Positions 5,145 through 63,782 of a stretch of 64,000 bases of DNA are shown one piece after another. Source of the DNA: a virus. Numbering within the stretch: the first letter of the stretch is position 1; the number at the start of each line of letters is the position of its first letter. Position numbers and translations under genes: made by a program. The DNA is taken from IMG/VR virus record IMGVR_UViG_3300035034_003774. The stretch is one strand, 5' to 3'. The notes under the pieces were generated by a model. The model made no database searches. It was not told the origin of the DNA and saw only the letters and a list, made by a program, of their open reading frames with translations.

Positions 5145-5173
5145 GTTATACGCATATTGCGAAAAAATGTTTC
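5145..5173 (-). promoter_or_regulatory. sigma70-like promoter GAAACA-N17-TATAAC upstream of rnr
   Basis: minus-strand reading GAAACATTTTTTCGCAATATGCGTATAAC; member of a repeated promoter family in this window. Confidence 0.5.
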
Positions 5174-5562
5174 TAATTTGGGACTGTGGTGTAATCAATA
5201 CTTCCAATCTCCTTTCCATTGACGATCACTTTATCTTGGTGATCATCATTGACAATCCAGCCTCTATCTTTTAATGTTCTAATCTCTAAATCAAAGCAAG
5301 CAAGAGGCCTGTACTTAAGAATCTCACCATCGAACTTCTTGTCTATAGAGAGTTTTATTAATCCCTTTGTCATATCATCATACCAACCTGGATTTACTAA
5401 ATGAGTCCAGTAATAAACATTAGATAAATGCTGATGAGTCATTCCTTCGAAATTATTAAATCTCTGTCCAGTAAAACTCTGCCAAACAATAGGGTTTTTA
5501 ACACTATATTTTACTAATCTTTCTTTATGCATTTTCTTTCTCTTTTTCTGATTCAACAACAT
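5173..5562 (-). CDS. hypothetical protein
   Basis: ORF, K-rich N-terminus. Confidence 0.3.
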   Translation of the reverse strand: MLLNQKKRKKMHKERLVKYSVKNPIVWQSFTGQRFNNFEGMTHQHLSNVYYWTHLVNPGWYDDMTKGLIKLSIDKKFDGEILKYRPLACFDLEIRTLKDRGWIVNDDHQDKVIVNGKEIGSIDYTTVPN

Positions 5563-7099
5563 TTTCTGCTCTCATCTGAGGGAAAAATAAAACATCCTGA
5601 ATAGAGTCTTGATTAGTTAAAATCATCACAAGACGATCAATTCCGATTCCCAGGCCAGCTGTAGGTGGCATTCCGTACTCAAGGGCTCTTAAGAAATCTT
5701 CATCCAGAGCCATAGCTTCATCATCACCAGCTCCAGCAAGCTTAATTTGTTCCTCAAACCTTTCTCTTTGATCAATTGGGTCATTAAGCTCTGAATAAGC
5801 ATTAGCGATCTCCTTGCCATTGATGATGAGTTCAAATCGTTCAACAAGACCCTCTTCTGTTCTATGCTTCTTAGCCAATGGAGACATCTCAATTGGGTAG
5901 TCATATACAAATGTAGGTTCAATTAACTCAGGCTCCACAAACTCCCCGAAAATTTCATCAAGAAGCTTACCTCTACCCATTGTCTTATCAACATTAAGTC
6001 CTTTTTCTTTACACAAATCAAATAGACCCTGTTCTGTCAAGTTCTTAACATTAACTTGGGCGTATTTTTCAATAGCCTCAAAGAAAGTAATTCTTTCATA
6101 TCTATAAACCATACTGACATCACTTCCATCTTTAGCCTTAAAAGTTCCATGATTTAAAGCCATTGAAGCCACTGACTGAATCAATCTCTCACATACGTCC
6201 ATCATCCACATATAATCTTTATATGCAGCATACATTTCAACTTGAGTAAACTCTGGGTTATGGTATCTGCTCATTCCCTCATTTCTGAAGTCCTTAGCAA
6301 ATTCAAATACTCTTGGGAAACCACCAACTATCAACTTCTTTAGATAAAGCTCATTTGCAATCCTCAAATACAACTCCATATCTAGTTTGTTGTGGTGTGT
6401 CTTAAATGGCTTAGCTGATGCTCCACCATGAACTGATTGAAGTATTGGAGTCTCAACTTCAAGAAAACTACTTGATAAAAGGGAGTCTCTAATTGCTTGA
6501 ACAATCTTTGATCTCTTTATAAAAGTTTTTCTGACTTCTGGATTTACCACAAGATCAACGTACCTCTGACGGTATCTTGCCTCCTTCTTTGTAAAGGCGC
6601 CATGCTCATTTCCATCTTCATCTCTTTTTACCACTGGCAGTGGCTTAACAGACTTTGATAACAGAATCATTTTACTTGCCTTAAGAGTAACTTCTCCAGT
6701 CTTTGTCCTGAACATCTCACCCTCAAAACCAACGTGATCACCAAGATCAAGAAGTTTCTTAAATACCGTATTATACATTGCTTTATCCTCTTCGGGGCAA
6801 ATTTCATCACGCATAACATATACTTGAAGCTGGCCAAAATCATCTTGTATTTTACAAAAAGAAGCCTTACCCATTATGTTTCTCATCATCAATCTACCAG
6901 CAATAATGACTTTCATTGGTACATTTTGTCCAACCTTCTCAACTTTCTCGAAATGACGAATAACTTGAGTTGTTTTCAAATCTTTTTCACGACCCTCAAG
7001 GTACATTTTAAACTCCTCTGCTGGATATGGATTAATACCAAGTTCTCTTAGCTTGTTAAGAGACTCACGTCTAATTACTTCTTGTTCTGATAAACTCAT
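5525..7099 (-). CDS. lysS: lysyl-tRNA synthetase, class II
   Basis: full-length similarity to bacterial LysRS: N-terminal OB anticodon-binding region, class II motifs (FEVETP, HNPEFT, GLGIGIDRLVM). Confidence 0.9.
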   Translation of the reverse strand: MSLSEQEVIRRESLNKLRELGINPYPAEEFKMYLEGREKDLKTTQVIRHFEKVEKVGQNVPMKVIIAGRLMMRNIMGKASFCKIQDDFGQLQVYVMRDEICPEEDKAMYNTVFKKLLDLGDHVGFEGEMFRTKTGEVTLKASKMILLSKSVKPLPVVKRDEDGNEHGAFTKKEARYRQRYVDLVVNPEVRKTFIKRSKIVQAIRDSLLSSSFLEVETPILQSVHGGASAKPFKTHHNKLDMELYLRIANELYLKKLIVGGFPRVFEFAKDFRNEGMSRYHNPEFTQVEMYAAYKDYMWMMDVCERLIQSVASMALNHGTFKAKDGSDVSMVYRYERITFFEAIEKYAQVNVKNLTEQGLFDLCKEKGLNVDKTMGRGKLLDEIFGEFVEPELIEPTFVYDYPIEMSPLAKKHRTEEGLVERFELIINGKEIANAYSELNDPIDQRERFEEQIKLAGAGDDEAMALDEDFLRALEYGMPPTAGLGIGIDRLVMILTNQDSIQDVLFFPQMRAENVVESEKEKENA

Positions 7100-7329
7100 C
7101 TTTTCAATAATTTTTTTAGTCTACTATTTTCTGTTTGCAATTTTTCATTTTCATCTAACACCCTCTTCAACTGATCTTCAGCTGTATCAAGAGCTCGGTA
7201 AATAGCTTTGGTAGTTTGAAAGAGCTTTCTTACATCTGGGTGAAACTCAACTTGAGAGTTCATTCTAATGTCGGCCTTAATGACCTCTCCCTTTCTCTTC
7301 TTATTCTTTTTGTTAATCCTTTGTCTCAT
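7096..7329 (-). CDS. small coiled-coil protein
   Basis: 77 aa, charged heptad-like sequence. Confidence 0.3.
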   Translation of the reverse strand: MRQRINKKNKKRKGEVIKADIRMNSQVEFHPDVRKLFQTTKAIYRALDTAEDQLKRVLDENEKLQTENSRLKKLLKR

Positions 7330-8204
7330 TATTCTTTAAGTTCAATTTTCATCCCAGTCATAAACTCAAGGCTATTTTGGTTTGGAGTCAATCCAGAAAC
7401 CTGACCATCGCCAGTCTCTATGATCATCCAATCACCATCTTCCTTTTCTGCTACATCAATAGTAAAGAAATTACTATCTATCTGGAAGGCTATTCCATTA
7501 ACAACCGAATGAACAAAGTCATTTGGAGTGTTGAATTTACCTTTTTGATTTGAATTAGGGGTGCAGGATATTAAACGATTATCATAATAAAACAATCTCC
7601 ACTCGTTCACATTATCATCATCTCCCTTTTTGAGGTCAATAAACTCTTTGAATACGAGACCCTCACTAAATAAGATACCTCTGTGTTCAACAAAAGCCTC
7701 TACCCTCTTTAATAGCTCATCTCCAGCTATTCCAGCTGGCATTCTAAATAGATTGGGCACATTCTTTGCAGACTTAACAAAATCCTTCATCAAGAAATCT
7801 TTGTCTCCAAAAAAATCAGATATATTATTGAGTATGTCTGCATCCCAATCATTTTTGATAAATATAGCTTTTGAAGTGTAATCCTTGGTATAGTCATAAG
7901 ACTCTGGGAAGTGATGGCAATTTTTATATTGCTCTGGAGAATTGACCAAGCTATAACCCATTCCTTTTAATAGATTATACAGGTCTGTGTATTCAGACAT
8001 GTTCAACATCCAACTTCTTAGCACCAAAGATACATCACCCTCTGTCTGAGAAGGAATGTCTGTACTGAGCGAACCTCTAACAAACTTATCATGATCGAAA
8101 AGGTAACAATCAAATCCAAGTAGCTTTGCAGCCCTATGCTCTTCCATAAAGTCGCTATCGACCTTACTTCCTTCAAGGGGATTACATGGGAAAAGTATCT
8201 TCAT
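7329..8204 (-). CDS. putative ATP-grasp fold enzyme
   Basis: C-terminal FFTIDVAEKEDGDWMIIETGDGQVSGL resembles ATP-grasp C-terminal strand; weak overall. Confidence 0.35.
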   Translation of the reverse strand: MKILFPCNPLEGSKVDSDFMEEHRAAKLLGFDCYLFDHDKFVRGSLSTDIPSQTEGDVSLVLRSWMLNMSEYTDLYNLLKGMGYSLVNSPEQYKNCHHFPESYDYTKDYTSKAIFIKNDWDADILNNISDFFGDKDFLMKDFVKSAKNVPNLFRMPAGIAGDELLKRVEAFVEHRGILFSEGLVFKEFIDLKKGDDDNVNEWRLFYYDNRLISCTPNSNQKGKFNTPNDFVHSVVNGIAFQIDSNFFTIDVAEKEDGDWMIIETGDGQVSGLTPNQNSLEFMTGMKIELKE

Positions 8205-8222: not shown

Positions 8223-8251
8223 GTTATACGCAAATTTACGAAAATTGTTTC
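8223..8251 (-). promoter_or_regulatory. sigma70-like promoter GAAACA-N17-TATAAC
   Basis: minus strand GAAACAATTTTCGTAAATTTGCGTATAAC, 20 nt before ATG at 8204. Confidence 0.5.
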
Positions 8252-10184: not shown

Positions 10185-10610
10185 TTAAACTATAATTTCT
10201 CCTTCCTTTTTGAACTTATCTCTTAATCTTATTTTCTTTCTTAGAACCTCGATCTCTTTATTAATTCTCTCTCTCTCATCAAGCTTTAGCTGTAGATTGA
10301 TGTCGAGATTCTTGATGCCTATTATGAAATTGACTTCCATTTTAATGAATTTGCTTTTAAACTCATTATCAGTATCCATCAAGTTTTGATGAGTATTCTT
10401 ATAGTGACATATTGTTGAGTGATCTACGTCCAATATCTTACCTATTCTATATGGTCCTTTGTCAGTGTTCCTTTCAAGCACCAAAGATACCATTCTCTTT
10501 GCATCTACATACTCAGGCTTTCTGGACTTCTTTAAGACATCTTCTTTGCTAAATCCAAGAACCTCCTCCGCAATATTAAAAACTATATCAGCATCTCTAT
10601 CCATTATCAA
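10185..10610 (-). CDS. DnaA domain-IV-like helix-turn-helix protein
   Basis: KEDVLKKSRKPEYVDAKRMVSLVLERNTDKGPYRIGKILDVDHSTICHYKN matches the Bac_DnaA_C signature (SRKRE..AR..MYL.R..T......IG..FGGRDHTTVIHA). Confidence 0.5.
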   Translation of the reverse strand: MIMDRDADIVFNIAEEVLGFSKEDVLKKSRKPEYVDAKRMVSLVLERNTDKGPYRIGKILDVDHSTICHYKNTHQNLMDTDNEFKSKFIKMEVNFIIGIKNLDINLQLKLDERERINKEIEVLRKKIRLRDKFKKEGEIIV

Positions 10611-10861: not shown

Positions 10862-11368
10862 CTACTCCGTGAATATGTGAGATACTTTATGCTTAATCTC
10901 TATAATTGCAGTGATTACTTGTTTCATTAAAAAATCTTCATCAACGCAAAACATTTTTGCGGCCTCATTGACAGGTAATGCATCAATTGCAACCGCATTA
11001 TAAAATACCCTGGTCTTAGAAGGTAGTTCCCTGATCATCTCAATCACAACTTCTGTTTGAATATCTTTGTTATGAAGATCAATATTTTCCTTTTTATTGG
11101 ATATAATCCCTGGCCTTACAATGATTTCGTTACAACAGTAATTAACCGCTATAGACCTTGACCACTCTTCAAAATTAGAAGGTATATCACCAGACTTAAG
11201 CTTATTAAATATAGTTATGAATATATTTTCCGTAAACTCCTTAGCTTCTTCCTCGCTTTCGGCGTATCGCATAGATATAGCATGAATCCTTCCATATTTA
11301 GATTTAAACACCTCCTTTTGATAAACTTTATCTCCAGAAGCAGCTTTTTCTAATGTAGAACGATTCAT
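10862..11368 (-). CDS. ECF-type sigma-70 family factor (regions 2 and 4)
   Basis: region-2-like KEVFKSKYGRIHAISMRYAESEEEAKEFTENIFITIFNKL and region-4-like LPSKTRVFYNAVAIDALPVNEAAKMFCVDEDFLMKQVITA. Confidence 0.45.
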   Translation of the reverse strand: MNRSTLEKAASGDKVYQKEVFKSKYGRIHAISMRYAESEEEAKEFTENIFITIFNKLKSGDIPSNFEEWSRSIAVNYCCNEIIVRPGIISNKKENIDLHNKDIQTEVVIEMIRELPSKTRVFYNAVAIDALPVNEAAKMFCVDEDFLMKQVITAIIEIKHKVSHIFTE

Positions 11369-11589
11369 TACTTATCCATTTTTTTTCTACCCTTAATTCT
11401 TGATCTAATAATCTCTGTTACAAGAAATATAACTACACCCCATGCAAAAAAGAAGAAGTGAAGAGCGAAAATTAATAAAATGACAAGCAGATGAGACATC
11501 CACGTCTTTTTATATCTAACGTAGTATACTGCAGTGATTATTACTGCTATTAGCGATACTATCCAAATTGGTAATCCTGATACAACCAT
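11368..11589 (-). CDS. small membrane protein
   Basis: two predicted TM helices. Confidence 0.35.
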   Translation of the reverse strand: MVVSGLPIWIVSLIAVIITAVYYVRYKKTWMSHLLVILLIFALHFFFFAWGVVIFLVTEIIRSRIKGRKKMDK

Positions 11590-11612: not shown

Positions 11613-11641
11613 ATTATACGAAATATAAAAGTTTTTGTTTC
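11613..11641 (-). promoter_or_regulatory. sigma70-like promoter GAAACA-N17-TATAAT
   Basis: minus strand GAAACAAAAACTTTTATATTTCGTATAAT, 23 nt before ATG at 11589. Confidence 0.5.
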
Positions 11642-14026: not shown

Positions 14027-14581
14027 TTAAAATATCTCTATATCATCTTCCTTTCCAGACTTAAATGTCTCTTCGGTTTTTGTGCTTGTGACTATGACAT
14101 TATCCATAGGTTCTCGATCTCCTACAAAGAAACTTCCAGGAAATGTTACGAGCATCTTGTTATACTCCTCCTCTACGGCAACCATCTCTTTTTGCCTTGT
14201 AGCAAAATCTGTCCTTTGAGCCTCAATTGTATTCATGAGGTTATTGAACATTGTTGCGTCGAAATTAGGGCTATGCTCCTGAACCCAGGACATCATTTGA
14301 CCTTGGCCGTCTGAATATCTATTATCCATAAGCCCAGTGTATATTTCTTTAAAAGACTCCTGATACTTATCAACCACTCCTGCTTGCTGACTAATAATTT
14401 TCCATACAGCATCAAAATCTGCTTTATTAGATTTTATCTTCTTATCAACCTGAACTTCAAGTTGATTTGCGTGGTTGTTGTAAGAAATTGACATAGAAAC
14501 ATATATTGTTCCCAGTATCAACGCTATCGCTCCAAATATGACATAAGACTTATTCTTTTGCCAAAAACTTTTATTTTCCAT
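14027..14581 (-). CDS. membrane-anchored protein (LemA-like architecture)
   Basis: single N-terminal TM then soluble helical domain. Confidence 0.3.
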   Translation of the reverse strand: MENKSFWQKNKSYVIFGAIALILGTIYVSMSISYNNHANQLEVQVDKKIKSNKADFDAVWKIISQQAGVVDKYQESFKEIYTGLMDNRYSDGQGQMMSWVQEHSPNFDATMFNNLMNTIEAQRTDFATRQKEMVAVEEEYNKMLVTFPGSFFVGDREPMDNVIVTSTKTEETFKSGKEDDIEIF

Positions 14582-14608: not shown

Positions 14609-14637
14609 GTTATACGCAAAAATAAATAAAATGTTTC
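14609..14637 (-). promoter_or_regulatory. sigma70-like promoter GAAACA-N17-TATAAC
   Basis: minus strand GAAACATTTTATTTATTTTTGCGTATAAC, 27 nt before ATG at 14581. Confidence 0.5.
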
Positions 14638-15482: not shown

Positions 15483-15511
15483 GCAACATAAATCATTAAT
15501 TTGCGTACAAC
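15483..15511 (+). promoter_or_regulatory. plus-strand promoter GCAACA-N17-TACAAC in divergent region
   Basis: TTTGCAACATAAATCATTAATTTGCGTACAAC keeps the conserved CG before the -10. Confidence 0.4.
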
Positions 15512-15546: not shown

Positions 15547-16047
15547 ATGGTAGAGACAGAGTGTTTTTGTGTTAATGAAAAGTGTAGAGAATACGGCAAC
15601 ACAGTTGTGGTAAAGGATTATGACTACACAGAAGGTATGCAAAACTTTTGCTCAAGCTGTGGAGTAAGGTTAAAGGCGAGGCCTAATAAAAGTAATGGCC
15701 TAAACATAGAAGATGTTAAGAAAATACTAAATAATATAAATTTCGCAGAATACTCATGCATAGACATGGGCTGGGAATTCCAGATTAAAATTGAAGGTGA
15801 TCTATATCTAATTAGAACATCCTTTAAAAGAAAGGATATTAATAGCGGGAAACTCGGCAAAGGTTGGGGCCGTTGGCACACAACTCCAGTTAAAGGAGCA
15901 AGTGAAACATCTATAGTAATGACTGCGTGGGTTTGTGTTAAAATGATAATCGAACACGAGTTGCTTGAAGGGTTTGAATACAAAGGCAAAAAAGTATTCA
16001 ATCCTCACAAGACTATTGATCAACTCGTATATCCAAATAAATTATGA
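15547..16047 (+). CDS. zinc-ribbon containing protein
   Basis: CFCVNEKC...CSSCG N-terminal Cys4. Confidence 0.35.
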   Translation: MVETECFCVNEKCREYGNTVVVKDYDYTEGMQNFCSSCGVRLKARPNKSNGLNIEDVKKILNNINFAEYSCIDMGWEFQIKIEGDLYLIRTSFKRKDINSGKLGKGWGRWHTTPVKGASETSIVMTAWVCVKMIIEHELLEGFEYKGKKVFNPHKTIDQLVYPNKL

Positions 16048-16443: not shown

Positions 16444-16472
16444 GAAACATTTTCATTTTATTTTCGTATAAT
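16444..16472 (+). promoter_or_regulatory. plus-strand promoter GAAACA-N17-TATAAT
   Basis: TGAAACATTTTCATTTTATTTTCGTATAAT, 21 nt before ATG at 16493. Confidence 0.5.
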
Positions 16473-17436: not shown

Positions 17437-17499
17437 TATTTGGTTTTATATTGAAACTTTTATAATTTTGTAACGTATTTATATACACAAGCATTAATT

Positions 17500-17794: not shown

Positions 17795-17835
17795 TTTAAA
17801 GTTATTAACATGTTAATAACTTTTTAAAATTTGAT

Positions 17836-17864
17836 TAAACATTTTTCATTTCTCTACGTATCAC
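17836..17864 (+). promoter_or_regulatory. possible promoter TAAACA-N17-TATCAC upstream of sigma factor gene
   Basis: keeps conserved CG before the -10 but the -10 is weak. Confidence 0.3.
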
Positions 17865-17899: not shown

Positions 17900-18781
17900 A
17901 TGAGGCAATTAAAAATTACAAAACAAATCACCAATCGTGAGACACAATCTTTTAGTAAATATCTAACGGAGGTAAACAGTATAGGTGATGTAATTTCTCC
18001 CGAAGAAGAGATAGAGCTAACCAGGAGAATAAAGGAAGGAGATGAGAAGGCTCTTGAGAAACTTGTTACAGCAAATTTAAGATTTGTTATTAGTGTTGCA
18101 AAACAATATGGAAATATGGCACCTCTTCCCGATCTTGTAAATGAAGGGAACTTAGGACTTATCAAAGCTGCTAACAGATTTGATGAGACCAGAGGGTTTA
18201 AGTTTATATCATATGCGGTGTGGTGGATTAGACAATCAATAATGCAATACTTATCAGATCATGGCAAAATGATCAGGCTCCCATCTAATAGAGTAAACAT
18301 GATTCAAAACGTCAGAAAGGCGGATAACTATTTAGAACAATTACTCCAGAGAAAGCCTACTTACTTAGAAATTTCAGAACTATTATCTGAGAAAGACACT
18401 AAGTACACAGAGAAAATGGTGAAGAGTTTAATGAAGAATGATCAAAAAGTTTCTTCAGTAGATGCTCCAATAACAACAAGTGATGAATCTGGAAGCATGC
18501 TAGACCTAATGGAAGGTGATGGAGGTCAGGATGCAGATAAAGTAACCAATAAAAGCGATCTTATGATAGAGGTTGAGAGAACGCTTGATTTATTACCAGC
18601 GAGACAAAAGGAGGTTCTGGTAATGTATTTTGGACTTCTTGGAACTCGTCAATGTAGCCTAGAAGAAATAGGAATTAAATACGATCTCACAAGAGAACGT
18701 GTTAGACAGATAAAAGAAAAAGCTTTAAGAAGAATTAAAGTAATCTCCAGAAATAGCAGCCTTAAAGAATTTATACAATAA
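17900..18781 (+). CDS. rpoD: RNA polymerase sigma factor, short Bacteroidota-type sigma-A (RpoD-like)
   Basis: MRQLKITKQITNRETQSFSKYL N-terminus typical of Bacteroidota sigma-A; regions 2 (YAVWWIRQSI), 3 and 4 (EEIGIKYDLTRERVRQIKEKALRRI). Confidence 0.85.
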   Translation: MRQLKITKQITNRETQSFSKYLTEVNSIGDVISPEEEIELTRRIKEGDEKALEKLVTANLRFVISVAKQYGNMAPLPDLVNEGNLGLIKAANRFDETRGFKFISYAVWWIRQSIMQYLSDHGKMIRLPSNRVNMIQNVRKADNYLEQLLQRKPTYLEISELLSEKDTKYTEKMVKSLMKNDQKVSSVDAPITTSDESGSMLDLMEGDGGQDADKVTNKSDLMIEVERTLDLLPARQKEVLVMYFGLLGTRQCSLEEIGIKYDLTRERVRQIKEKALRRIKVISRNSSLKEFIQ

Positions 18782-22452: not shown

Positions 22453-22481
22453 ATTATACGTTATAAAACAAATTATGTTAC
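22453..22481 (-). promoter_or_regulatory. sigma70-like promoter GTAACA-N17-TATAAT
   Basis: minus strand TGTAACATAATTTGTTTTATAACGTATAAT; placed immediately after the terminator T-tract. Confidence 0.5.
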
Positions 22482-26919: not shown

Positions 26920-26948
26920 ATTATACGCTACAAATATAATAATGTTAC
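26920..26948 (-). promoter_or_regulatory. sigma70-like promoter GTAACA-N17-TATAAT
   Basis: minus strand TGTAACATTATTATATTTGTAGCGTATAAT, immediately after the terminator T-tract. Confidence 0.5.
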
Positions 26949-40110: not shown

Positions 40111-40167
40111 ATCTCTCTTTGTTTGTTAGTTCAAAATTACTTATAAAAAAACAACCGACCAAATGTT

Positions 40168-43288: not shown

Positions 43289-43322
43289 AGTAAGTTTTAC
43301 GCAAAAAAATAATTATGTTACA

Positions 43323-45732: not shown

Positions 45733-45761
45733 TTTATACGAAATAATTATTTGGATGTTTC
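45733..45761 (-). promoter_or_regulatory. sigma70-like promoter GAAACA-N17-TATAAA
   Basis: minus strand TGAAACATCCAAATAATTATTTCGTATAAA; -10 lies only 8 nt from the annotated ATG 45724. Confidence 0.45.
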
Positions 45762-51205: not shown

Positions 51206-51213
51206 AATATTAT

Positions 51214-51239
51214 AAAAAAGGGAGCCACGAAGGACTCCC
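51214..51239 (-). terminator. rho-independent terminator after vWA gene
   Basis: GGGAG-TCCTTCGTGG-CTCCC then TTTTTT on minus strand. Confidence 0.5.
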
Positions 51240-51269
51240 TTTCACCTTCTAATATATTAATATCAACTC

Positions 51270-54037: not shown

Positions 54038-56758
54038 TTACAACCTTGGGTCAAGTTCATACTCCTTCTTCTCCTCAAGAACCATCTCTGCACAAGCCTG
54101 AACATAACTCTTGTTTTCTTTTCCTATCTTGTTGTAAGGAATTTCAAGAAGTCGCTTACCAATTTCCCACTCTTTAACAGAAACCTCCAACTTCTTAAAC
54201 GTTTTCTTACGACTAATAAGTTTTGAAAGTTTTTGTGGCATAAGGTAATCTGGTCCATAAATAATTGTTAGATACCTTGGGTTCCTAACTTTTATAGATG
54301 GAGCAACACCCTCGGTATACACATCCATAGGTTTAAGCATAATACCTTCCATTTCCTCTACATTAGTAGTGTTATCATAGAATTCTTTAAGCTTTTGAAT
54401 TTCTTCCTCCGAATTGATGTCGATGACAACAAATTCATCATCATTAACAGCGCTATAAACTTCCTCATTAGTAGAGTTGAAGAATAGCTTCTCAGAGCCA
54501 TCATCAAACACTTGCTTTAAGATAGAGAATGGCTTAAAATGAACATCTCCATCCGAACCATAAAGCTCTATCTGTTTTGAATATATTTCAGAAGCCTTCT
54601 TAAGATCATCCAGATTGGAGAACTCTCTATCAAAATCTCTAATACATCTGTAAGTCATAGCTCTATTTGAGCCGAACTTCTTGTCTAAACTTTTTCTTGA
54701 GGCCTTGTGCTGTACATTCTCATAATCAGACTCAGCATAAGGGCCATTAAAAATTTTATTGAACTCTTCTTCAAAACCAGTCTTCCTAAGAAAATCAATC
54801 TCACTATGAATAGCCTTATCTACAGTTACAAAATTCTTTTCAATCATGCCTCTACCCATTGCAGACCAAGGGAGAAGCTCAGCATCAAGAATTAATAACT
54901 CTGTCCCACTTTTGAATGCTTCCTTAACAAATGGAAGTTCATAAAGAGGTTTATACGCATCTGTTAGATCAAGTTTCTCTGGCTTAATTCTAAACCCACC
55001 TCTTGATGTAGAGTAGTTTTTATCTGGGTCAGAAAATAAGTATATATTAGCTCTTGAGCCCATGTACTTAGGCTGGGCCACCACTTTAGAAATACCTTTA
55101 CTTTTAAAGTAGTTTACCGCCTGATCTAAAGACTCAAGCTCACTATCCTCAAGAATGACTTCTTTATTTTCATCCTTTGAGATCACTTTATTCGCTGGAC
55201 AAATTGTTCCAGAAACAAAATTAACACCCCCCTCTGAAGCATAATAAATTCTTCCACGATCTCTACCTTCAAGATCATCTAAACTAACCTTTGGGGGTGG
55301 AGTGTAGAAAAAGTCATTAAGCTCTTTGCTATTAATCTTTTCATTGTACTTAGAGGAAACCTCCTTAATGAATGGTCGACCCCATGTATTAACAACAACA
55401 GAAGTTAGCTTACCTCCAGATACACATCCAGTATCAATATTTATCTTATTAGACTTAATCCCAACCCTATCAGTTGAAACATGCCCAAATACATGAGTTG
55501 GATATGATCGAGAAGATTGATTCCTGAAATAACTAAAGAACTTATACTTACTGTATAGGTACTCCGCCTTATCATCAAACTCCTGACGCTTTGGATAAAC
55601 TACAGTCATCTGGTTTCTTTCAGAGTTCTTGCCAAGCTTACCTAAATATTTCTGATCACAAGGAGCATGAGTAACAATGAAGTCATCTGACTTTAGAAAT
55701 GGCTTCATGACATCAAATATGTCATAAAACTTTTGCTTAAGCTCATCATCATCTCTAAAAAGCTCAATACTATCAAAATAAGTGTCAATAACGTCTTGAG
55801 GCGGAAGGTCTTTTACTCTTATTCCAGAATTATTATCTGAACCTTCAGATTCAAGATAATGAAGGTATTTGTAAACAAAGTTTTCATGATTACCCTTCAC
55901 CATGTGGAACCAGTCCATGTTATCATGCACAAACTCAATAACTGCACGAACATCATAACCTTTATCAACAAGATCGCCCACAAGAACTATTTTCTTCCCG
56001 CTTTCTTGACCAGTTATTTTACCGTTCTCAATTTCAAAATCATTCTTTTCAAGAAGTTTGATAAACTCATCGTAACAACCATGAATATCACCAATGATTA
56101 CATATTCTCCTTCTGGGAGCTGGCAATCTTGGTATCTATCATAGTTTGTTATGTTTATATCAACCTTATCAAGATTATGAGATTTGATTTTGTAAATATC
56201 TCTGAAATGTTTTTTACTAAGTTCAGACATAACTGTCTTTCTCATGTAATCAACTTGACGATGAGTTGTTCGCTTGTTCTCCTCACTATCTTTATCAATA
56301 AATTTCTCATAAGCTGACCTACCCTTATAATCAAACATAACAACAGCGATGTTATAATTATTCTTATAGGCTATATCCTTGATCTCATCTCTAAAGCTTT
56401 TCTTAAGCCCAGTTGAGTCAACTACAACAAAATCAGAATTTATTGGATACGATGTAAGAGCATCAACCTTTGATTTAAGTACATCAAAAGCTGGAACACT
56501 TGCGTGCATCATTCTTTTATCACTTTTAGAAAGCGAATCATCTCCAAGAAATTCCTTTCTAATGTCATCAGAAGAAATTCTATGTATTGAAACATCGCCC
56601 TGAGCCTTTAGCGAAGGGATTAGCTTGTTTTCTGTAAAATATGTCTTACCACACCCACTTGGACCAACGAGTAATACGATGGTGTGCATCCTCAAGTCGA
56701 TATTAACGACTTTGGACTCTCTGGGAGTATTCTTTACTTTGAATGTCTCTTCTTGCAT
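54038..56758 (-). CDS. polynucleotide kinase-phosphatase (Pnkp-like)
   Basis: N-terminal P-loop kinase (LLVGPSGCGKTY), central calcineurin-like phosphoesterase (GDIHGCYDEF, GDLVDKG, GNHE), and a ~400-aa C-terminal domain with a possible KYMGSR motif I. Probable true start at internal Met24 (MHTIVLLVG). Confidence 0.6.
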   Translation of the reverse strand: MQEETFKVKNTPRESKVVNIDLRMHTIVLLVGPSGCGKTYFTENKLIPSLKAQGDVSIHRISSDDIRKEFLGDDSLSKSDKRMMHASVPAFDVLKSKVDALTSYPINSDFVVVDSTGLKKSFRDEIKDIAYKNNYNIAVVMFDYKGRSAYEKFIDKDSEENKRTTHRQVDYMRKTVMSELSKKHFRDIYKIKSHNLDKVDINITNYDRYQDCQLPEGEYVIIGDIHGCYDEFIKLLEKNDFEIENGKITGQESGKKIVLVGDLVDKGYDVRAVIEFVHDNMDWFHMVKGNHENFVYKYLHYLESEGSDNNSGIRVKDLPPQDVIDTYFDSIELFRDDDELKQKFYDIFDVMKPFLKSDDFIVTHAPCDQKYLGKLGKNSERNQMTVVYPKRQEFDDKAEYLYSKYKFFSYFRNQSSRSYPTHVFGHVSTDRVGIKSNKINIDTGCVSGGKLTSVVVNTWGRPFIKEVSSKYNEKINSKELNDFFYTPPPKVSLDDLEGRDRGRIYYASEGGVNFVSGTICPANKVISKDENKEVILEDSELESLDQAVNYFKSKGISKVVAQPKYMGSRANIYLFSDPDKNYSTSRGGFRIKPEKLDLTDAYKPLYELPFVKEAFKSGTELLILDAELLPWSAMGRGMIEKNFVTVDKAIHSEIDFLRKTGFEEEFNKIFNGPYAESDYENVQHKASRKSLDKKFGSNRAMTYRCIRDFDREFSNLDDLKKASEIYSKQIELYGSDGDVHFKPFSILKQVFDDGSEKLFFNSTNEEVYSAVNDDEFVVIDINSEEEIQKLKEFYDNTTNVEEMEGIMLKPMDVYTEGVAPSIKVRNPRYLTIIYGPDYLMPQKLSKLISRKKTFKKLEVSVKEWEIGKRLLEIPYNKIGKENKSYVQACAEMVLEEKKEYELDPRL

Positions 56759-56763
56759 ATCTA

Positions 56764-56792
56764 TTTATACGTTAATTTTCTAAAATTGTTAC
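56764..56792 (-). promoter_or_regulatory. sigma70-like promoter GTAACA-N17-TATAAA
   Basis: minus strand GTAACAATTTTAGAAAATTAACGTATAAA; -10 only 6 nt from the annotated ATG 56758, supporting a downstream true start. Confidence 0.45.
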
Positions 56793-58093
56793 TTAAACTT
56801 GACAATAATTCCCTGACTCGGTGAAACACCTTCAACAACATCTCCAATTCCGAACCATTCAATAAGCTCAAGTTTGTCCTTAATTGGATATAAAACACCA
56901 TTCATGAAGTCCTTAAACTGCTTATCATCCCATTCAAAATCATGATCTTCATGACGCATCCCTTCCATAAAGTAATTGTCATTAAACCTTACGTCTGGAG
57001 TTGTTACAATTAGAGTTCCTATATTAGGAACATCAAGCATTTCTTTAAGCAGTTCTGTAGCTTTATGTGGCTCCATATGCTCAATAACTTCAGTGCATAT
57101 AATATCAATCTTTTGGTTGTTTCCATCTCCAGACTCAAGAAACTGATCTACTGTTTTATAGAACTCTACATTCTTAAGACCTTTTCTCTTGACTCTTTTC
57201 TCAGCCTTCTCTCTAACATCGTCATCAATATCAACAGCAAAATAATTAAGGTCCTTCATAAATCTGTTAAACCTACTTATATACTTACCTTCACCGCAAC
57301 CAACATCAAGAATGCTATTTCTAAAATCAAGTCTCTCTTGAATTGCCATCTGACGAGCTTGCCATGTATCTCCATACTTTATCTCAATGTCTTTCTGAGT
57401 ATTTTTTGACAAATCCTCTTGAACGCTTTTAAATGTCTTGAAGTTGATCAAGAATCTTTTCTTAAACAAGTATCTCACAAAATATGGAGCATCAATAATA
57501 TTCATGCATCTAACATACTTCATAGCATTTTCTTCATTGACATACATTGGCTCGTTATTAACGATTGCCTGGAATATTCCAAATAGACTGGCGAAATTTA
57601 AAAGCTCATATATAGACTTCTTTGTAGTAATTTTGATTTGATAATTCTTCCCACTAACCACCTCGTGTTCTACTTTATAGTCTGGGAAATAATCATTAAA
57701 TGCATCAATGTACCTTGAGTTCCATACATAAATCATATTAATAAAGAACACACTTTCGTTACCGCCTTCATCTTTTTTGGTGCCATCTACAATTGAATAC
57801 TCATTAGATTTAAAAGCACTCCTAAGCATATCATCAATAGCGCTTACTACAAAAGTAGCAGAGTTATATCTGGATGTGTTAAGGTATTCAAAAGTCTCCC
57901 CCTCATGAGATGGAAATGAAACTTCATCACTACCATCCTTGAAGAATAAATTATACTCCTGTTCACTACCTTTGGTGTAATAACCAAATATAGTACCCTG
58001 TCTCATAGTTTTGGCTTGAAGTCCTGTAGCAGGATTCTTACTAATAATAAATGAAAAGTCTTTATTATCACTCTTTAATTGTACAATACTCAT
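56789..58093 (-). CDS. Hen1-like RNA 3'-terminal 2'-O-methyltransferase (SAM-dependent MTase in C-terminal half)
   Basis: motif I ILDVGCGEGKY, post-I YFAVDIDDD, motif II DIICTEVIEHM; adjacency to Pnkp-like gene as in the bacterial Pnkp/Hen1 operon. Confidence 0.5.
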   Translation of the reverse strand: MSIVQLKSDNKDFSFIISKNPATGLQAKTMRQGTIFGYYTKGSEQEYNLFFKDGSDEVSFPSHEGETFEYLNTSRYNSATFVVSAIDDMLRSAFKSNEYSIVDGTKKDEGGNESVFFINMIYVWNSRYIDAFNDYFPDYKVEHEVVSGKNYQIKITTKKSIYELLNFASLFGIFQAIVNNEPMYVNEENAMKYVRCMNIIDAPYFVRYLFKKRFLINFKTFKSVQEDLSKNTQKDIEIKYGDTWQARQMAIQERLDFRNSILDVGCGEGKYISRFNRFMKDLNYFAVDIDDDVREKAEKRVKRKGLKNVEFYKTVDQFLESGDGNNQKIDIICTEVIEHMEPHKATELLKEMLDVPNIGTLIVTTPDVRFNDNYFMEGMRHEDHDFEWDDKQFKDFMNGVLYPIKDKLELIEWFGIGDVVEGVSPSQGIIVKFK

Positions 58094-58094
58094 T

Positions 58095-58343
58095 TTATGA
58101 CTTATTTATTTTTTTATTACCACCCTTATTAACCCCCAAAGTTTCATCATAATTTTTAAAAACGTCATTCGACTCTTTTTCTATGAATTCAACTAAATAT
58201 TTAAGAGCTTGTTCTGAATTCATTCCATTTTCCCCTACCTTACCTTTCTCTATAGCTCCTTTAACTGTTTTTGCAGCAACTGAAAAAGCTCCTACAGAAG
58301 CCATCGCTTGATCAAGTAAGTAATCCTTAGAATGTTCATCCAT
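58095..58343 (-). CDS. hypothetical small protein
   Basis: 82-aa ORF. Confidence 0.3.
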   Translation of the reverse strand: MDEHSKDYLLDQAMASVGAFSVAAKTVKGAIEKGKVGENGMNSEQALKYLVEFIEKESNDVFKNYDETLGVNKGGNKKINKS

Positions 58344-58351: not shown

Positions 58352-58380
58352 TTTATACGTTGATAAATTAAAAATGTTAC
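58352..58380 (-). promoter_or_regulatory. sigma70-like promoter GTAACA-N17-TATAAA
   Basis: minus strand GTAACATTTTTAATTTATCAACGTATAAA. Confidence 0.45.
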
Positions 58381-62197: not shown

Positions 62198-62198
62198 C

Positions 62199-63734
62199 TT
62201 ACTTTTTTCTATAGTCCATATTTAATTTTGTCGATCTTACGTAAGCTCTAATCATTTTAATTTCAGGAACTGTCTTTTCATAACCATAAAGCTCCTTCAT
62301 CGTCTTTCTCATCGAAGAGTCGCTTGTATTAAAAACGATGTCTTCCATTTTTATTTGAGATGGATGATCGTAACCGCAAGCATGTGAAACTTCCATAATA
62401 TCCTTTCTAAGAGTTTTTATAAATCGACCAACTCTCTCAGACTTATCCTCTACATTCACACCCTTTTCAAGCCACCAGTTATGAGTTGCAATTCCAGCAG
62501 GACATCTACCAGTGTGACAAACCTTTGCTTGTATACACCCAGCAGACATCATAACTTCTCTTGCAATATTAATTAGATCAGCACCCATAGCAAATGCAAC
62601 TGCAGCTCTCGTTGGATGCCCAAGCTTTCCAGATGCAATCCAAGTCACATCACTTTCAATTTTCTTGTCTTTAAAAATCTTGTACACCTTAGAAAATCCA
62701 TCCTTAAGCGGAAGCGACATGTTATCAGCAAAAGCTGAAGGCGCAGCTCCAGTTCCTCCTTCTCCACCATCTATTGTAATAAAATCTGGACCCTTTCCTG
62801 TTGATTTTATAATTTCCGACAACTCTTCCCAGAAGTCAGTTTTACCAACCGCCGACTTAATACCCACTGGAAGTCCAGTTAACTCAGCTATTTCTTCAAT
62901 AAGGTCAACAAGTTCTGATGTATTTTTAAATGCTGTGTGATAAGCTGGAGAATGAACCGTCTTACCCTCTTCAATGCCTCTTATTTTAGCGATCTCAGCA
63001 TTAACCTTCTTACCTGGTAGTATTCCGCCTTTTCCTGGCTTAGCACCTTGAGATAGCTTTATCTCAATCATTCTTATGTCTCTATTAGACTTTGTTAATG
63101 AGTGAAGTGCGTCGATGTCAAAAACACGCTTTCCATCCACTGTCTTACCACAGCCAAAATATCCTGTTCCAAAGTGAAATACAACATCAGCTCCATTTCC
63201 ATGATATTTTGTAGAGAAACCTCCTTCTCCAGTATTGTGATAAGCTCCAGCTATGTATGCCCCTCTGTTATTTGACTCTGTTGCCTTTTTCCCAAGTGAA
63301 CCATAACTCATTGCAGATATATTAACAATAGATAGAGGTAAGTAAGGTTTATCTCTTAATCTTCCTATAACCTTAGCGCAAGGAGCAAAATCTTCTGGCA
63401 TCGCTTCGTTTCTTTTAAATGGAAATGAACTTGTGTTTACAAAGAAGTGGCCATTTTCATAAAAGTTGGCGTCCGAGCCAAATCCAGTTAGATTATTCTC
63501 TCCTTTGGCGGAAGAGTATATGTAGCTTCTCCAAACACGATCAAAAGGTTTCTCCTCTCTATCGTGAGCAACCCAATACTGCCTTAGCTCTGGTCCAATC
63601 TTTTCCAAAAAATACCTTAACCTACCCACTAATGGGAAGTTACTTATAATTGTATGCTTCTTATTAAAGATGTCGTAAACTGCTACTAAAGCAATTACTG
63701 CAATTATCGAAAATACTACTGTCATTGTGCTCAT
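62199..63734 (-). CDS. FMN-binding glutamate synthase (GltS central domain) family protein, membrane anchored
   Basis: N-terminal TM; IEIKLSQGAKPGKGGILPGKKV; GADLINIAREVMMSAGCIQAKVCHTGRCPAGIATHN. Confidence 0.6.
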   Translation of the reverse strand: MSTMTVVFSIIAVIALVAVYDIFNKKHTIISNFPLVGRLRYFLEKIGPELRQYWVAHDREEKPFDRVWRSYIYSSAKGENNLTGFGSDANFYENGHFFVNTSSFPFKRNEAMPEDFAPCAKVIGRLRDKPYLPLSIVNISAMSYGSLGKKATESNNRGAYIAGAYHNTGEGGFSTKYHGNGADVVFHFGTGYFGCGKTVDGKRVFDIDALHSLTKSNRDIRMIEIKLSQGAKPGKGGILPGKKVNAEIAKIRGIEEGKTVHSPAYHTAFKNTSELVDLIEEIAELTGLPVGIKSAVGKTDFWEELSEIIKSTGKGPDFITIDGGEGGTGAAPSAFADNMSLPLKDGFSKVYKIFKDKKIESDVTWIASGKLGHPTRAAVAFAMGADLINIAREVMMSAGCIQAKVCHTGRCPAGIATHNWWLEKGVNVEDKSERVGRFIKTLRKDIMEVSHACGYDHPSQIKMEDIVFNTSDSSMRKTMKELYGYEKTVPEIKMIRAYVRSTKLNMDYRKK

Positions 63735-63782
63735 AAAAAAACCGCTTTCTTTGGTTATACGAAAGCGGTTGTAAAATGTTGC
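63735..63782 (-). promoter_or_regulatory. terminator hairpin with embedded promoter (GCAACA-N17-TATAAC) directly upstream of the gltS-family gene
   Basis: 9-bp stem ACCGCTTTC/GAAAGCGGT (63741-63769) with the -10 TATAAC inside the loop, A-run 63735-63740 abutting ATG 63734, -35 at 63777-63782. Confidence 0.45.

What the first reader, a model, noticed from the sequence alone, without database searches (positions are those of the whole stretch)
5145..63782. Repeated promoter family T-[G/T]-[A/T]-AACA - N15 - CG - TATAA[T/C/A], atypical for Bacteroidota
At least ten minus-strand intergenic sites (5145, 8223, 11613, 14609, 22453, 26920, 45733, 56764, 58352, 63754) carry an almost invariant arrangement. 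So do two or three plus-strand sites (15483, 16444, possibly 17836).
The arrangement is a GAAACA/GTAACA/GCAACA hexamer, an exactly 17-nt spacer whose last two bases are always CG, then TATAAT, TATAAC or TATAAA. Each is oriented toward the downstream gene.
This resembles a canonical sigma70 -35/-10 pair. It does not resemble the Bacteroidota sigma-A consensus (TTTG ... TAnnTTTG).
The element encodes its own sigma-A homologue and an ECF-like sigma. The motif may therefore define the regulon of a virus-encoded sigma factor, or indicate that the host is not what the T9SS signal suggests.
Basis: seen in the sequence. Interest (0 to 1): 0.65.

Follow-up and report, generated by a model that had tools for sequence, protein, structure and literature searches.

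The report
ECF-sigma-type promoter family in a phage
A large uncultured phage of Flavobacteria-like hosts starts most of its operons in this window with one nearly invariant promoter that has the grammar of bacterial stress-type (ECF) sigma factors rather than the housekeeping sigma, and the phage carries its own ECF-like sigma gene behind one of these promoters.

Summary
G-N-AACA-N15-CGTATAA occurs 11 times exactly (0.03 expected). All 11 lie in the ~6% non-coding DNA and point at the next gene. Three weaker variants bring the total to 14.

Five of the 11 abut terminator hairpins. In related phage contigs the motif recurs at matching positions. In 21 of 102 sites an ATG lies exactly 6 nt downstream, which suggests leaderless mRNAs and fixes the start site.

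The interpretation needs correcting. This is not a sigma70-like pair. It is the classic ECF-sigma grammar (AAC-N16-CGT, as in B. subtilis SigW: TGAAAC-N16-CGTA). It matches experimentally mapped "SigECF" promoters of Flavobacterium psychrophilum (GTAAC-N16-CGTATAA), so it is typical for Bacteroidota.

Bacteroidota housekeeping promoters (TAnnTTTG) also occur in the window. The phage sigma-A homologue has DNA-reading regions identical to host sigma-A, so it should read those, not this motif.

The likely reader is an ECF sigma: the phage's own (10862-11368, in an operon behind one motif copy), the host's, or both. The window's version has a diverged DNA-reading helix and one relative lacks the gene at that spot, so a host ECF sigma remains a serious rival.

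Verdict: a new member of a known kind, of moderate interest.

The parts
5146..5173 (-). ECF-type promoter GAAACA-N15-CGTATAA, 21 nt before the ATG of the RNase R-like gene 3181-5124
   Evidence: Exact match. RNB/S1 domains in the downstream protein.
8224..8251 (-). ECF-type promoter, directly after a terminator hairpin plus T-run. Lies 19 nt before gene 7329-8204; the operon continues into the LysRS-like gene 5525-7099.
   Evidence: (terminator 8280-8259). An orthologous site exists in L189 at 2347.
11614..11641 (-). ECF-type promoter of the operon: 73-aa membrane protein (11368-11589), ECF-like sigma (10862-11368), 83-aa protein, DnaA_C-type HTH protein. This is the putative autoregulatory promoter.
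   Evidence: A motif lies at the same place in L189, L002, L004 and L005, and one gene further upstream in L001.
10862..11368 (-). Divergent ECF-family sigma factor gene (168 aa), the candidate reader of the motif
   Evidence: TIGR02937 sigma70-ECF: E 1e-8, 35 bits against a cut-off of 42.9, full-length match. Pfam Sigma70_r2: E 9e-4. AlphaFold model pLDDT 80; best PDB fold match is SigW 5wuq; sigma4 superposes on sigmaE region 4 (2h27) at about 1 A. Syntenic canonical ECF sigmas occur in L001, L002 and L004.
11368..11589 (-). Conserved 73-aa multi-pass membrane protein gene, co-transcribed just upstream of the ECF-like sigma. Role unknown.
   Evidence: 58-73% identical in L001-L005 and present even where the sigma gene is missing.
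14610..14637 (-). ECF-type promoter, 28 nt before gene 14027-14581
15483..15510 (+). Variant ECF-type promoter GCAACA-N15-CGTACAA, 36 nt before gene 15547-16047. Sits in the divergent region.
   Evidence: One mismatch. Orthologous exact sites exist in L189 (7565), L001 (6551), L004 (6822) and L005 (6840).
16444..16471 (+). ECF-type promoter, 21 nt before gene 16493-16792
   Evidence: Orthologous sites occur in L189, L001, L004 and L005.
17836..17863 (+). Weak variant TAAACA-N15-CGTATCA, 36 nt before the sigma-A homologue gene
   Evidence: Two mismatches. In the relatives L001 (9932), L002 (9851) and L033 (9947), a full or near-full motif precedes the orthologous sigma-A gene.
17900..18781 (+). 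Phage copy of the Bacteroidota primary sigma factor (293 aa). Predicted to read TTTG/TAnnTTTG promoters, not the motif.
   Evidence: Pfam regions 1.2, 2, 3 and 4. 53-55% identical to Flavobacteriales RpoD/SigA. Regions 2.3-2.4 and 4.2 invariant between phage and host proteins.
22454..22481 (-). ECF-type promoter after a terminator hairpin, 67 nt before the gene for a protein with a T9SS C-terminal sorting domain (21268-22386)
26921..26948 (-). ECF-type promoter after a terminator hairpin, 41 nt before the nucleoside 2-deoxyribosyltransferase-like gene 26412-26879
43295..43321 (-). Variant GTAACA-N14-CGTAAAA with an ATG exactly 6 nt downstream (gene 42953-43288).
   Evidence: The 6-nt offset is the leaderless signature of the family.
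45734..45761 (-). ECF-type promoter, 9 nt before the RlaP-like nucleotidyltransferase gene 44453-45724
56765..56792 (-). ECF-type promoter with an ATG 6 nt downstream, giving a predicted leaderless mRNA of the Pnkp-like RNA repair gene 54038-56758
58353..58380 (-). ECF-type promoter, 9 nt before the 82-aa gene 58095-58343, which is followed by the Hen1 gene 56789-58093
63755..63782 (-). ECF-type promoter GCAACA-N15-CGTATAA after a hairpin, 20 nt before the glutamate-synthase-domain gene 62199-63734
40132..40163 (-). Example of the second promoter class in the window: Bacteroidota sigma-A type TTTG-N20-TAATTTTG. Other -7 boxes in intergenic DNA lie at 232, 2039, 8921, 17463(+), 27967 and 29920.
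   Evidence: Consensus TAnnTTTG as in PMC9723704.

Best explanation
The repeats are a family of ECF-sigma-type (group 4) promoters of a large phage that infects Flavobacteriales-like Bacteroidota.

The consensus is T-G-n-A-A-C-A-TTTT ... C-G-T-A-T-A-A, with AAC and CGT always 16 nt apart. Transcription starts 6-7 nt after CGTATAA. In about a fifth of family members that position is the A of the start codon, so those mRNAs are leaderless.

Host core RNA polymerase carrying an ECF-family sigma reads them. The most likely main reader is the phage's own ECF-family sigma (10862-11368). Its gene lies in an operon behind one of these promoters, which gives a positive feedback loop. Because that gene has no other visible promoter, the loop is probably primed by a host ECF sigma of the same specificity or by read-through.

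The promoters drive accessory, RNA-repair, nucleotide and replication genes. In relatives they also drive the phage's own copy of sigma-A, which in turn should read the separate TAnnTTTG promoters.

Shown here: the motif, its statistics, placement and conservation; its identity with known ECF promoters; the sigma genes. Inferred: which sigma reads it, the timing, and the feedback loop.
For: **Promoter identity**
- 11 exact sites against 0.03 expected, all intergenic and correctly oriented.
- 13 of 50 family sites abut a terminator hairpin plus T-run, against 16 of 2000 random positions.
- The motif recurs 6-8 times per 20 kb at orthologous positions in the syntenic relatives L001-L005 and L189. 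Spacers and flanks differ between them.
- An ATG lies exactly 6 nt downstream in 21 of 102 sites, while neighbouring offsets have 0-5.

**ECF class**
- The invariant bases are AAC and CGT with a fixed 16-nt gap, followed by a T-tract after the -35 element.
- This matches B. subtilis SigW (TGAAAC / CGTA, tGAAACnTTTt) (PMC5758882).
- F. psychrophilum 5'-end-mapped SigECF promoters read GTAAC-N16-CGTATAA, with the TSS at the 6th nt downstream.
- ECF sigmas need near-consensus promoters and often autoregulate (PMC7776599).

**Phage ECF sigma**
- The gene is syntenic in the window and in L189, L001, L002/L003 and L004, always behind a motif.
- The relatives' proteins pass the TIGR02937 cut-off. They share the sigma2 and sigma4.2 reading helices with cellular Bacteroidota ECFs (44-47% identity) whose own upstream regions carry a conserved GGCAACC-N15-CGTC.
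- The family profile's best PDB hit is SigW. The window protein models as a two-domain ECF sigma.
- In the more distant phage contig L085, which has 4 motif sites, a bona fide ECF sigma gene sits behind a terminator plus a TATATTTG sigma-A-type box. That is the layout expected for a cascade.

**Sigma-A homologue excluded as reader**
- Its DNA-reading regions are identical to host sigma-A.
Against: - The window's ECF-like protein scores below the curated family cut-offs.
- Its sigma4.2 recognition helix (DEDFLMKQVITAI) and part of sigma2 (NYCCNEII) differ from the canonical SEGTSKSNLSKAR and NTAIDxIR.
- That helix is poorly conserved even against its 49%-identical orthologue in L189, yet the promoter motif is unchanged.
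- L005 has the motif but no ECF gene at the syntenic spot. Its contig is incomplete.
- The ECF operon in the window has only an ECF-type promoter, so something else must start the loop.
- No transcript data exist. No structural-gene region was available, so the temporal class is unknown.
Confidence: 0.55

Rival explanations
1. The promoters are read only by a host ECF sigma, of the type that reads F. psychrophilum SM6 promoters. The phage mimics a host stress or starvation regulon. The phage ECF-like protein is dispensable, degenerate, or does something else, such as titrating the host anti-sigma.
For: - The motif is identical to a mapped host SigECF promoter.
- The motif stays invariant across phages whose ECF gene is canonical (L001, L002, L004), strongly diverged in its DNA-reading helices (window, L189), or absent from the syntenic locus (L005).
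- The window's ECF operon has no other promoter, so a host factor must be able to fire it.
Against: - Host ECF sigmas are normally held by anti-sigmas and are scarce, yet these promoters head about half of the transcription units in 64 kb.
- An ECF gene is kept at the same position, behind the motif, in six of seven related genomes.
- The window protein still models as an intact two-domain sigma.
Confidence: 0.3
2. The phage-encoded sigma-A homologue (17900-18781) reads the motif as an unusual sigma70-like -35/-10 pair.
For: - The TATAA part looks like a -10 hexamer and the hexamers are 17 nt apart.
- The gene is phage-encoded and conserved in all relatives.
Against: - Regions 2.3-2.4 (FKFISYAVWWIRQSI) and 4.2 (LTRERVRQIKEKA) are invariant between the phage proteins and Flavobacteriales primary sigmas, which read TTTG/TAnnTTTG (PMC9723704).
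- The base at the T-7 position of the supposed hexamer is not conserved, while the CG before it is invariant.
- Many other viral contigs carry a sigma-A homologue without the motif.
Confidence: 0.04
3. The motif is read by something outside the sigma70 family, or is not a promoter at all. Candidates are a phage RNA polymerase, a repressor or activator operator, or a packaging or replication signal.
For: No transcript data exist. Only 64 kb of the genome was seen.
Against: - The bipartite form with rigid spacing, the strand orientation, the position after terminators, the fixed ATG offset and the match to mapped ECF promoters all point to a sigma-dependent promoter.
- No RNA polymerase gene was seen in the window.
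Confidence: 0.05

Closest known systems
Flavobacterium psychrophilum 'SM6 / SigECF' promoters (Guerin et al. 2021, PMC9723704)
   Same: - Same grammar and spacing. The best members read GTAAC-N16-CGTATAA (Band 7 gene) and GTAAC-N16-CGTCTTA.
- The TSS was mapped 6 nt after the -10 block.
- Same phylum as the inferred host.
   Different: - The host set is loose (ACAAC, ACAAT; CGTTT...), small (a few percent of TSSs) and tied to low-nutrient conditions.
- The phage set is nearly invariant over 12 positions and heads many operons.
- The responsible host sigma is itself not identified.
Bacillus subtilis SigW (ECF01-type) promoters, TGAAAC-N16-CGTA with a -35-proximal T-tract (PMC5758882)
   Same: - Same -35 and -10 core bases, the same 16-nt gap, and a T-tract right after the -35 element.
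- SigW is the best solved-structure match of the phage ECF family.
- Autoregulatory logic.
   Different: - Different phylum.
- SigW is a cellular envelope-stress sigma controlled by a membrane anti-sigma. No anti-sigma was identified here.
- The phage -10 block is longer (CGTATAA).
Phage-encoded sigma factors with their own promoter class: Salmonella phage 7-11 gp47 (GTAAtg-N16-aCTA) and phiEco32 gp36 (tAATGTAtA) (PMC8948821)
   Same: - A phage-encoded, highly diverged sigma directs host core RNAP to a dedicated, near-invariant phage promoter class.
- 7-11 has a bipartite motif with a 16-nt gap and a start 6-9 nt downstream.
   Different: - Those promoters differ from any host promoter class and serve middle or late genes.
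- Here the motif equals a host ECF promoter class, the genes served look early or middle (none structural seen), and the phage also carries a sigma-A copy.
- Nothing here has been tested biochemically.
Streptomyces ECF sigma ShbA transcribing the principal sigma gene hrdB (PMC12019637)
   Same: An ECF-type promoter sits in front of a principal-sigma-type gene. Here it precedes the phage sigma-A homologue in L001, L002 and L033, with a weak copy in the window.
   Different: That is a cellular system. The parallel is in wiring only.

Membership tests
ECF (group 4) sigma-dependent promoters | -35 element with an AAC core | tested here: met
   AAC is invariant in all 11 exact window sites. In the 50-site set it was required by the search pattern.
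ECF (group 4) sigma-dependent promoters | -10 element with a CGT core | tested here: met
   CGT is invariant, extended to CGTATAA. This matches CGTA of SigW and the CGT box of Flavobacterium SM6.
ECF (group 4) sigma-dependent promoters | Rigid spacing of about 16-17 nt between AAC and CGT | tested here: met
   The gap is 16 nt in every exact site. A scan with a spacer one base shorter or longer found only one intergenic variant, 43295.
ECF (group 4) sigma-dependent promoters | Near-consensus stringency across the regulon | tested here: met
   12 specified positions are invariant in 11 window sites. The property is described in PMC7776599.
ECF (group 4) sigma-dependent promoters | A copy upstream of the sigma gene's own operon (autoregulation) | tested here: met
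   Window site 11614, then the 73-aa gene, then the ECF-like gene. The same holds in L189, L002 and L004, and one gene further upstream in L001.
ECF (group 4) sigma-dependent promoters | Transcription start a few nt downstream of the -10 block | tested here: inconclusive
   Indirect only. There is a sharp peak of ATG at 6 nt after CGTATAA (21 of 102 sites), and the mapped host TSS is at the 6th nt. No RNA data exist for the phage.
ECF (group 4) sigma-dependent promoters | Initiation by RNAP holoenzyme carrying an ECF sigma | not testable with these tools
   Needs in vitro transcription or genetics.
Housekeeping sigma70-type promoter (TTGACA-N17-TATAAT) | Conserved final T of the -10 hexamer and TTG in the -35 hexamer | tested here: not met
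   The last base of TATAAN is T22/C16/A8/G4 of 50. The -35 hexamer is GnAACA.
Bacteroidota sigma-A promoter (TTTG ... TAnnTTTG) | TAnnTTTG box at -7 | tested here: not met
   The motif has CGTATAA instead. Separate TAnnTTTG boxes exist in other intergenic regions.
ECF sigma factor protein family (for 10862-11368) | Score above the curated family thresholds (TIGR02937; Pfam Sigma70_r2 and r4_2) | tested here: not met
   - TIGR02937: 35 bits against a cut-off of 42.9.
- Sigma70_r2: 19.4 bits against 24, and no r4 hit.
- Orthologue L189 r4_2: 19.8 bits against 25.7.
- Syntenic proteins of L001, L002 and L004 do pass.
ECF sigma factor protein family (for 10862-11368) | Two-domain sigma2 + sigma4 fold without regions 1.1 and 3 | tested here: met
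   - The protein is 168 aa. The AlphaFold model has pLDDT 80.
- Foldseek's top hit is SigW 5wuq (E 2e-5).
- sigma2 superposes on sigmaE region 2 at 1.7 A over 83 residues.
- sigma4 superposes on 2h27 at about 1 A over 58 residues.
- The model rests on an alignment of canonical ECFs.
ECF sigma factor protein family (for 10862-11368) | Conserved basic residues of the sigma4.2 recognition helix (RpoE R171/S172/F175/R176 equivalents) | tested here: not met
   The window has L-M-K-Q-V-I where the L001-type has K-S-N-L-S-R and SigW has K-T-R-I-H-R.
Phage sigma cascade (SPO1, 7-11, phiEco32 type) | Phage sigma gene plus a dedicated phage promoter class with a defined temporal class | tested here: inconclusive
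   The gene and the promoter class are present. The temporal class is unknown. Downstream genes sampled are all non-structural.

The most novel reading that the evidence does not exclude
The phage wires about half of its operons in this region to the host's ECF stress or starvation sigma, so infection is gated by the host's envelope or nutrient state.

In the window lineage, the phage ECF-like protein has lost the DNA-reading residues of sigma4. Instead it would act as a decoy that soaks up the host anti-sigma (or otherwise modulates the host ECF pathway) and so releases the host sigma onto phage promoters.
Probability: 0.1. Interest if true: 0.75.

Novelty: new member of a known kind. Interest (0 to 1): 0.45.

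Why it matters
- **Usable promoter model.** It gives a clean, testable promoter model for a widespread but uncultured group of large (roughly 140-360 kb) phages of aquatic Flavobacteriales. The model covers consensus, start site and leaderless transcripts. Transcription signals in this host group are poorly known and standard sigma70 scans fail.
- **Two-sigma layout.** The phage carries a copy of the host primary sigma plus an ECF-family sigma, and two matching promoter classes are interleaved along the genome.
- **A concrete open question.** The phage promoter equals a host ECF promoter class, which raises whether such phages ride on the host stress-sigma network.
- **Annotation.** The motif can be used at once to define transcription units in related metagenomic phage genomes.

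Tried and rejected
- **Isolated phages.** A megablast of 20 kb against INPHARED phages found nothing. A tblastn of the sigma-A homologue found only distant (<40%) hits in unrelated phages.
- **Close relatives of the window ECF-like protein.** Searching IMG/VR with the single sequence found none. The 5.8-billion-protein word search found only the protein itself. The orthologue was found by synteny instead.
- **Genome-contig scan for cellular ECF relatives.** It returned only two loci (Aquirufa, Saprospiraceae) with no clear upstream motif. Better cellular relatives came from the profile search plus contig look-ups.
- **Simple sigma70 scan.** It is uninformative in this AT-rich DNA: 91 hits against 72 expected.
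- **Structural genes behind the motif in relatives.** None were found among 30 proteins sampled. No structural module was available, so 'early/middle only' is not established.
- **Covariation between -35 variants and ECF sequence.** The variants considered were AGAACA in L002 and GnAACC in L033. The data were too few, and L033's ECF gene was not found.
- **Rejected readings.** sigma54, a T4-type MotA/AsiA mechanism, and AR9-type non-virion RNAP promoters (AACA-N6-TW, from memory). Spacing and context do not fit any of them.

Full report
**1. The observation**

The pattern AACA-N15-CGTATAA occurs 11 times in the 64-kb window, against 0.03 expected from dinucleotide-preserving shuffles. Aligning the sites shows a further invariant G two bases before AACA. 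The core is therefore G-n-A-A-C-A, 15 variable bases, then C-G-T-A-T-A-A.

- All 11 sites lie in the roughly 3,800 bases of non-coding DNA. That is about 6% of a window that is about 94% coding and mostly transcribed leftward.
- All 11 are on the strand of the next gene, 6 to 67 nt before its ATG.
- With one mismatch or fewer there is no site inside coding sequence.
- Its 15483 has one mismatch and its 17836 has two.
- I add 43295-43321 (spacer one base shorter, CGTAAAA, ATG 6 nt downstream).
- I also add a very weak copy at 17453-17480, which I read directly from the sequence.

**2. Evidence that these are promoters**

- *Terminators.* Five of the 11 window sites (8224, 11614, 22454, 26921, 63755) directly follow a stable hairpin plus T-run. 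Across the window and six related loci this holds for 13 of 50 sites, against 16 of 2000 random positions.
- *Conservation.* The window has no close DNA match among isolated phages. Syntenic relatives exist as IMG/VR contigs of 35-169 kb (L001-L005; sigma-A homologue 56-59% identical) and as a closer ENA contig (L189; 73%). They carry the same motif 6-8 times per 20 kb, at orthologous intergenic positions, with different spacers and flanks. A more distant pair (L007/L033, 49%) uses GnAACC-N15-CGTATAA.
- *Wider spread.* Many other large viral contigs of up to 291 kb have several copies within a few kb.
- *Start site.* Among 102 distinct sites in multi-copy loci, an ATG lies exactly 6 nt after CGTATAA in 21, while neighbouring offsets have 0-5. 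A second broad mode lies at 19-22 nt. The base before these ATGs is usually a pyrimidine. This is what leaderless mRNAs starting at the A of ATG would give. It places the start 6-7 nt after the -10 block. Window examples are 56765 (Pnkp-like gene) and 43295.

**3. Which class of promoter**

The data do not fit that.

- The last base of 'TATAAN' is T22/C16/A8/G4 in 50 sites, whereas the preceding CG is invariant.
- The -35 hexamer is GnAACA, not TTGACA.
- The invariant bases are AAC and CGT, 16 nt apart, with a T-tract right after the -35 element (AACATTTT). This is the grammar of ECF (group 4) sigma factors.
- B. subtilis SigW reads TGAAAC ... CGTA. A -35-proximal T-tract (tGAAACnTTTt) is a described feature of such promoters (PMC5758882).
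- ECF sigmas melt DNA poorly, need near-consensus promoters and often drive their own genes (PMC7776599). That explains the near-invariance.

The motif is also not foreign to Bacteroidota.

- The 5'-end map of Flavobacterium psychrophilum defines a 'SigECF' motif, SM6, with a CGT box (PMC9723704).
- Its Table S2 lists GTAAC-N16-CGTATAA before a Band 7 gene and GTAAC-N16-CGTCTTA before an ABC ATPase gene, plus looser members.
- The table's sequence column runs from -50 to +10. The mapped start is therefore the 6th nt after CGTATAA, within one base of the start inferred above.

**4. The host and the second promoter class**

- The 293-aa protein at 17900-18781 has sigma regions 1.2, 2, 3 and 4. 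It is 53-55% identical to the primary sigma of Flavobacteriales such as Crocinitomicaceae, Vicingaceae and Luteibaculaceae.
- In an alignment of eight phage and nine cellular proteins, regions 2.3-2.4 (FKFISYAVWWIRQSI) and 4.2 (LTRERVRQIKEKA) are invariant. This sigma should therefore read what host sigma-A reads: TTTG and TAnnTTTG.
- Such boxes are present in other intergenic regions of the window, at 232, 2039, 8921, 17463(+), 27967, 29920 and 40132. Two of them have a TTTG at the right distance upstream. TAnnTTTG is enriched about 2.4-fold in non-coding DNA.
- With the T9SS sorting domain at 21268-22386, everything points to a Bacteroidota host. The suggestion that the host might be something else is not supported.

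**5. The ECF sigma gene**

- *Position.* Behind the motif at 11614 lies an operon: a 73-aa membrane protein, a 168-aa protein (10862-11368), an 83-aa protein and a DnaA_C-type HTH protein.
- *Family scores for the 168-aa protein.* It matches TIGR02937 (sigma70-ECF) over its full length, but below the cut-off (E 1e-8, 35 against 42.9 bits). It matches Pfam Sigma70_r2 weakly.
- *Relatives.* At the same place L001 (209 aa), L002/L003 (211 aa) and L004 (367 aa, with an N-terminal extension) encode clear ECF sigmas that pass the cut-off. L189 encodes a 166-aa orthologue 49% identical to the window protein.
- *Structure.* A profile of the family finds SigW as the best solved structure (E 1e-21). An AlphaFold model of the window protein (pLDDT 80) matches SigW best. 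Its two halves superpose on sigmaE region 2 (1.7 A) and on region 4 bound to DNA (about 1 A).
- *Cellular homologues.* The L001-type proteins are 44-47% identical to cellular Bacteroidota ECFs from a conserved mdh-ECF-417-aa locus. They share the sigma2 motif NTAIDxIR and the sigma4.2 helix ISEGTSKSNLxKA[RK]. The upstream regions of those three cellular genes carry a conserved GGCAACC-N15-CGTC(A/T)A with varying spacers. That is the same grammar and spacing as the phage motif.
- *A cascade-like layout.* In contig L085 (4 motif copies in 12.9 kb) a bona fide ECF sigma gene sits behind a terminator and a TATATTTG box. There it would be made from a sigma-A-type promoter.

**6. Caveats on who reads the motif**

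- The window/L189 version differs from the canonical proteins in exactly the DNA-reading parts. It has NYCCNEII for NTAIDxIR and DEDFLMKQVITAI for SEGTSKSNLSKAR.
- That helix is one of the least conserved segments between the window and L189 proteins. Yet the promoter motif is the same in all lineages.
- L005 keeps the membrane-protein gene and the motif but has no sigma gene between it and the next conserved gene. No ECF relative was found elsewhere in the fetched part of that incomplete contig.
- The window's ECF operon has no visible sigma-A-type promoter, so something else must fire it first.

A host ECF sigma of the same specificity, which the F. psychrophilum data show exists in this group, is therefore at least a likely primer of the loop and possibly the main reader.

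My estimates are as follows.

| Proposition | Estimate |
|---|---|
| These are ECF-class promoters | ~0.85 |
| Phage ECF sigma is the main reader, primed by host sigma or read-through | 0.55 |
| Host ECF sigma alone reads them | 0.30 |
| Phage sigma-A homologue reads them | 0.04 |
| Some other reader, or not a promoter | 0.05 |

**7. What the promoters drive**

- *In the window:* an RNase R-like gene; an ATP-grasp/LysRS operon; the ECF operon; a T9SS-tailed protein; a nucleoside deoxyribosyltransferase-like gene; RlaP, Pnkp and Hen1 RNA-repair genes; and a glutamate-synthase-domain gene.
- *In relatives:* tRNA nucleotidyltransferase, NAMPT, peptide deformylase and a DnaB-like protein lie directly behind motif copies. 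DNA ligase and a polymerase lie in the same motif-rich loci.
- No structural gene was seen, but no structural module was available either.
- In L001, L002 and L033 a full or near-full motif precedes the sigma-A homologue. In the window only a weak copy does. An ECF-type promoter feeding a principal-type sigma gene has a cellular parallel in Streptomyces (PMC12019637).

**8. Comparison and novelty**

- Phage-encoded sigmas with dedicated promoter classes are well known. Phage 7-11 gp47 reads GTAAtg-N16-aCTA and phiEco32 gp36 reads tAATGTAtA (PMC8948821).
- Phage ECF-like sigmas are acknowledged but left out of the ECF classification (PMC7826278).
- I found no paper in the held library describing this motif or an ECF regulon in Bacteroidota phages.
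- The case is therefore a new member of a known kind. It has two points of interest: the promoter equals a host ECF promoter class, and the phage carries both a primary-type and an ECF-type sigma with two interleaved promoter classes.

Interest: 0.45.

Noticed in passing
window 17498-17740 (+); ARAGORN call 17465-17831: A phage-encoded permuted (two-piece) tmRNA.
- ARAGORN calls it with tag peptide ...TAVAPVAMAA.
- Rfam tmRNA_permuted RF04321 matches full-length at 37.9 bits (E 3.5e-6), below the gathering score of 47.
- ARAGORN finds the counterpart in L189 and L005.
- It is preceded by a full Bacteroidota sigma-A promoter (TTTG-N20-TAATTTTG, 17439-17470). In relatives it is preceded by GTAACA-N15-CGTATAT.
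   Followed up: partly
window 43323-45724 and 54038-58093 (-); also 3181-7099: An unusually rich RNA repair and translation-rescue set:
- Pnkp-like kinase/phosphatase/ligase (906 aa)
- Hen1 methyltransferase
- RlaP-like nucleotidyltransferase
- RNase R-like exonuclease
- a lysyl-tRNA synthetase-like gene
- the tmRNA

This looks like a counter-measure to host anticodon nucleases. Most of these genes sit behind ECF-type promoters.
   Followed up: partly
window 11368-11589 (-) and orthologues in L001-L005 and L189: A 72-74-aa multi-pass membrane protein always precedes the ECF sigma slot. It is far better conserved (58-73%) than the sigma (20-49%). It stays in L005, where the sigma gene is missing. 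It has no known family and a possible regulatory role.
   Followed up: partly
window 10185-10604 (-) and 17086-17436 (+): Two small proteins with a DnaA C-terminal-type helix-turn-helix (just below the Pfam cut-off). One lies in the ECF sigma operon and the other in the operon just upstream of the tmRNA and the sigma-A homologue. They are possible transcription regulators.
   Followed up: no
L004 1612-2715 (-); proteins P0131 and P0151: In one relative the ECF sigma is fused to a ~160-aa N-terminal extension. Database relatives of this form carry Pfam PF13392, which I recall from memory as an HNH-type nuclease domain. That would be an unusual sigma architecture.
   Followed up: no
window 39268-40110 (-): A metallo-beta-lactamase-fold protein with a sub-threshold match to the anti-Pycsar nuclease Apyc1 (33 bits against a cut-off of 50). 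It lies behind a sigma-A-type promoter and is a possible anti-defence gene.
   Followed up: no
window 26999-27940 (-): A phage-encoded SPFH/Band 7 protein behind a TACATTTG sigma-A-type box. In F. psychrophilum, Band 7 genes belong to the SigECF (SM6) regulon that has the same motif as the phage promoters.
   Followed up: no
window 21268-22386 (-): A phage gene for a protein with a signal peptide-like N-terminus and a T9SS C-terminal sorting domain, driven by an ECF-type promoter. This would be a secreted or surface protein made during infection.
   Followed up: no
window 48259-51980 (-): A Ser/Thr-kinase-like protein (weak PHROG hit) lies next to two proteins that, by eye only, look like a PP2C-type phosphatase and a von Willebrand A-type protein. 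This may be a signalling module. The last two were not run against any family library.
   Followed up: no
window 8231-8238, 14617-14624, 26931-26938 (-): In three ECF-type promoters the spacer itself contains a TAnnTTTG box ending 0-2 nt before CGTATAA. This could make them dual sigma-A/ECF promoters, or it could be chance in T-rich spacers.
   Followed up: no
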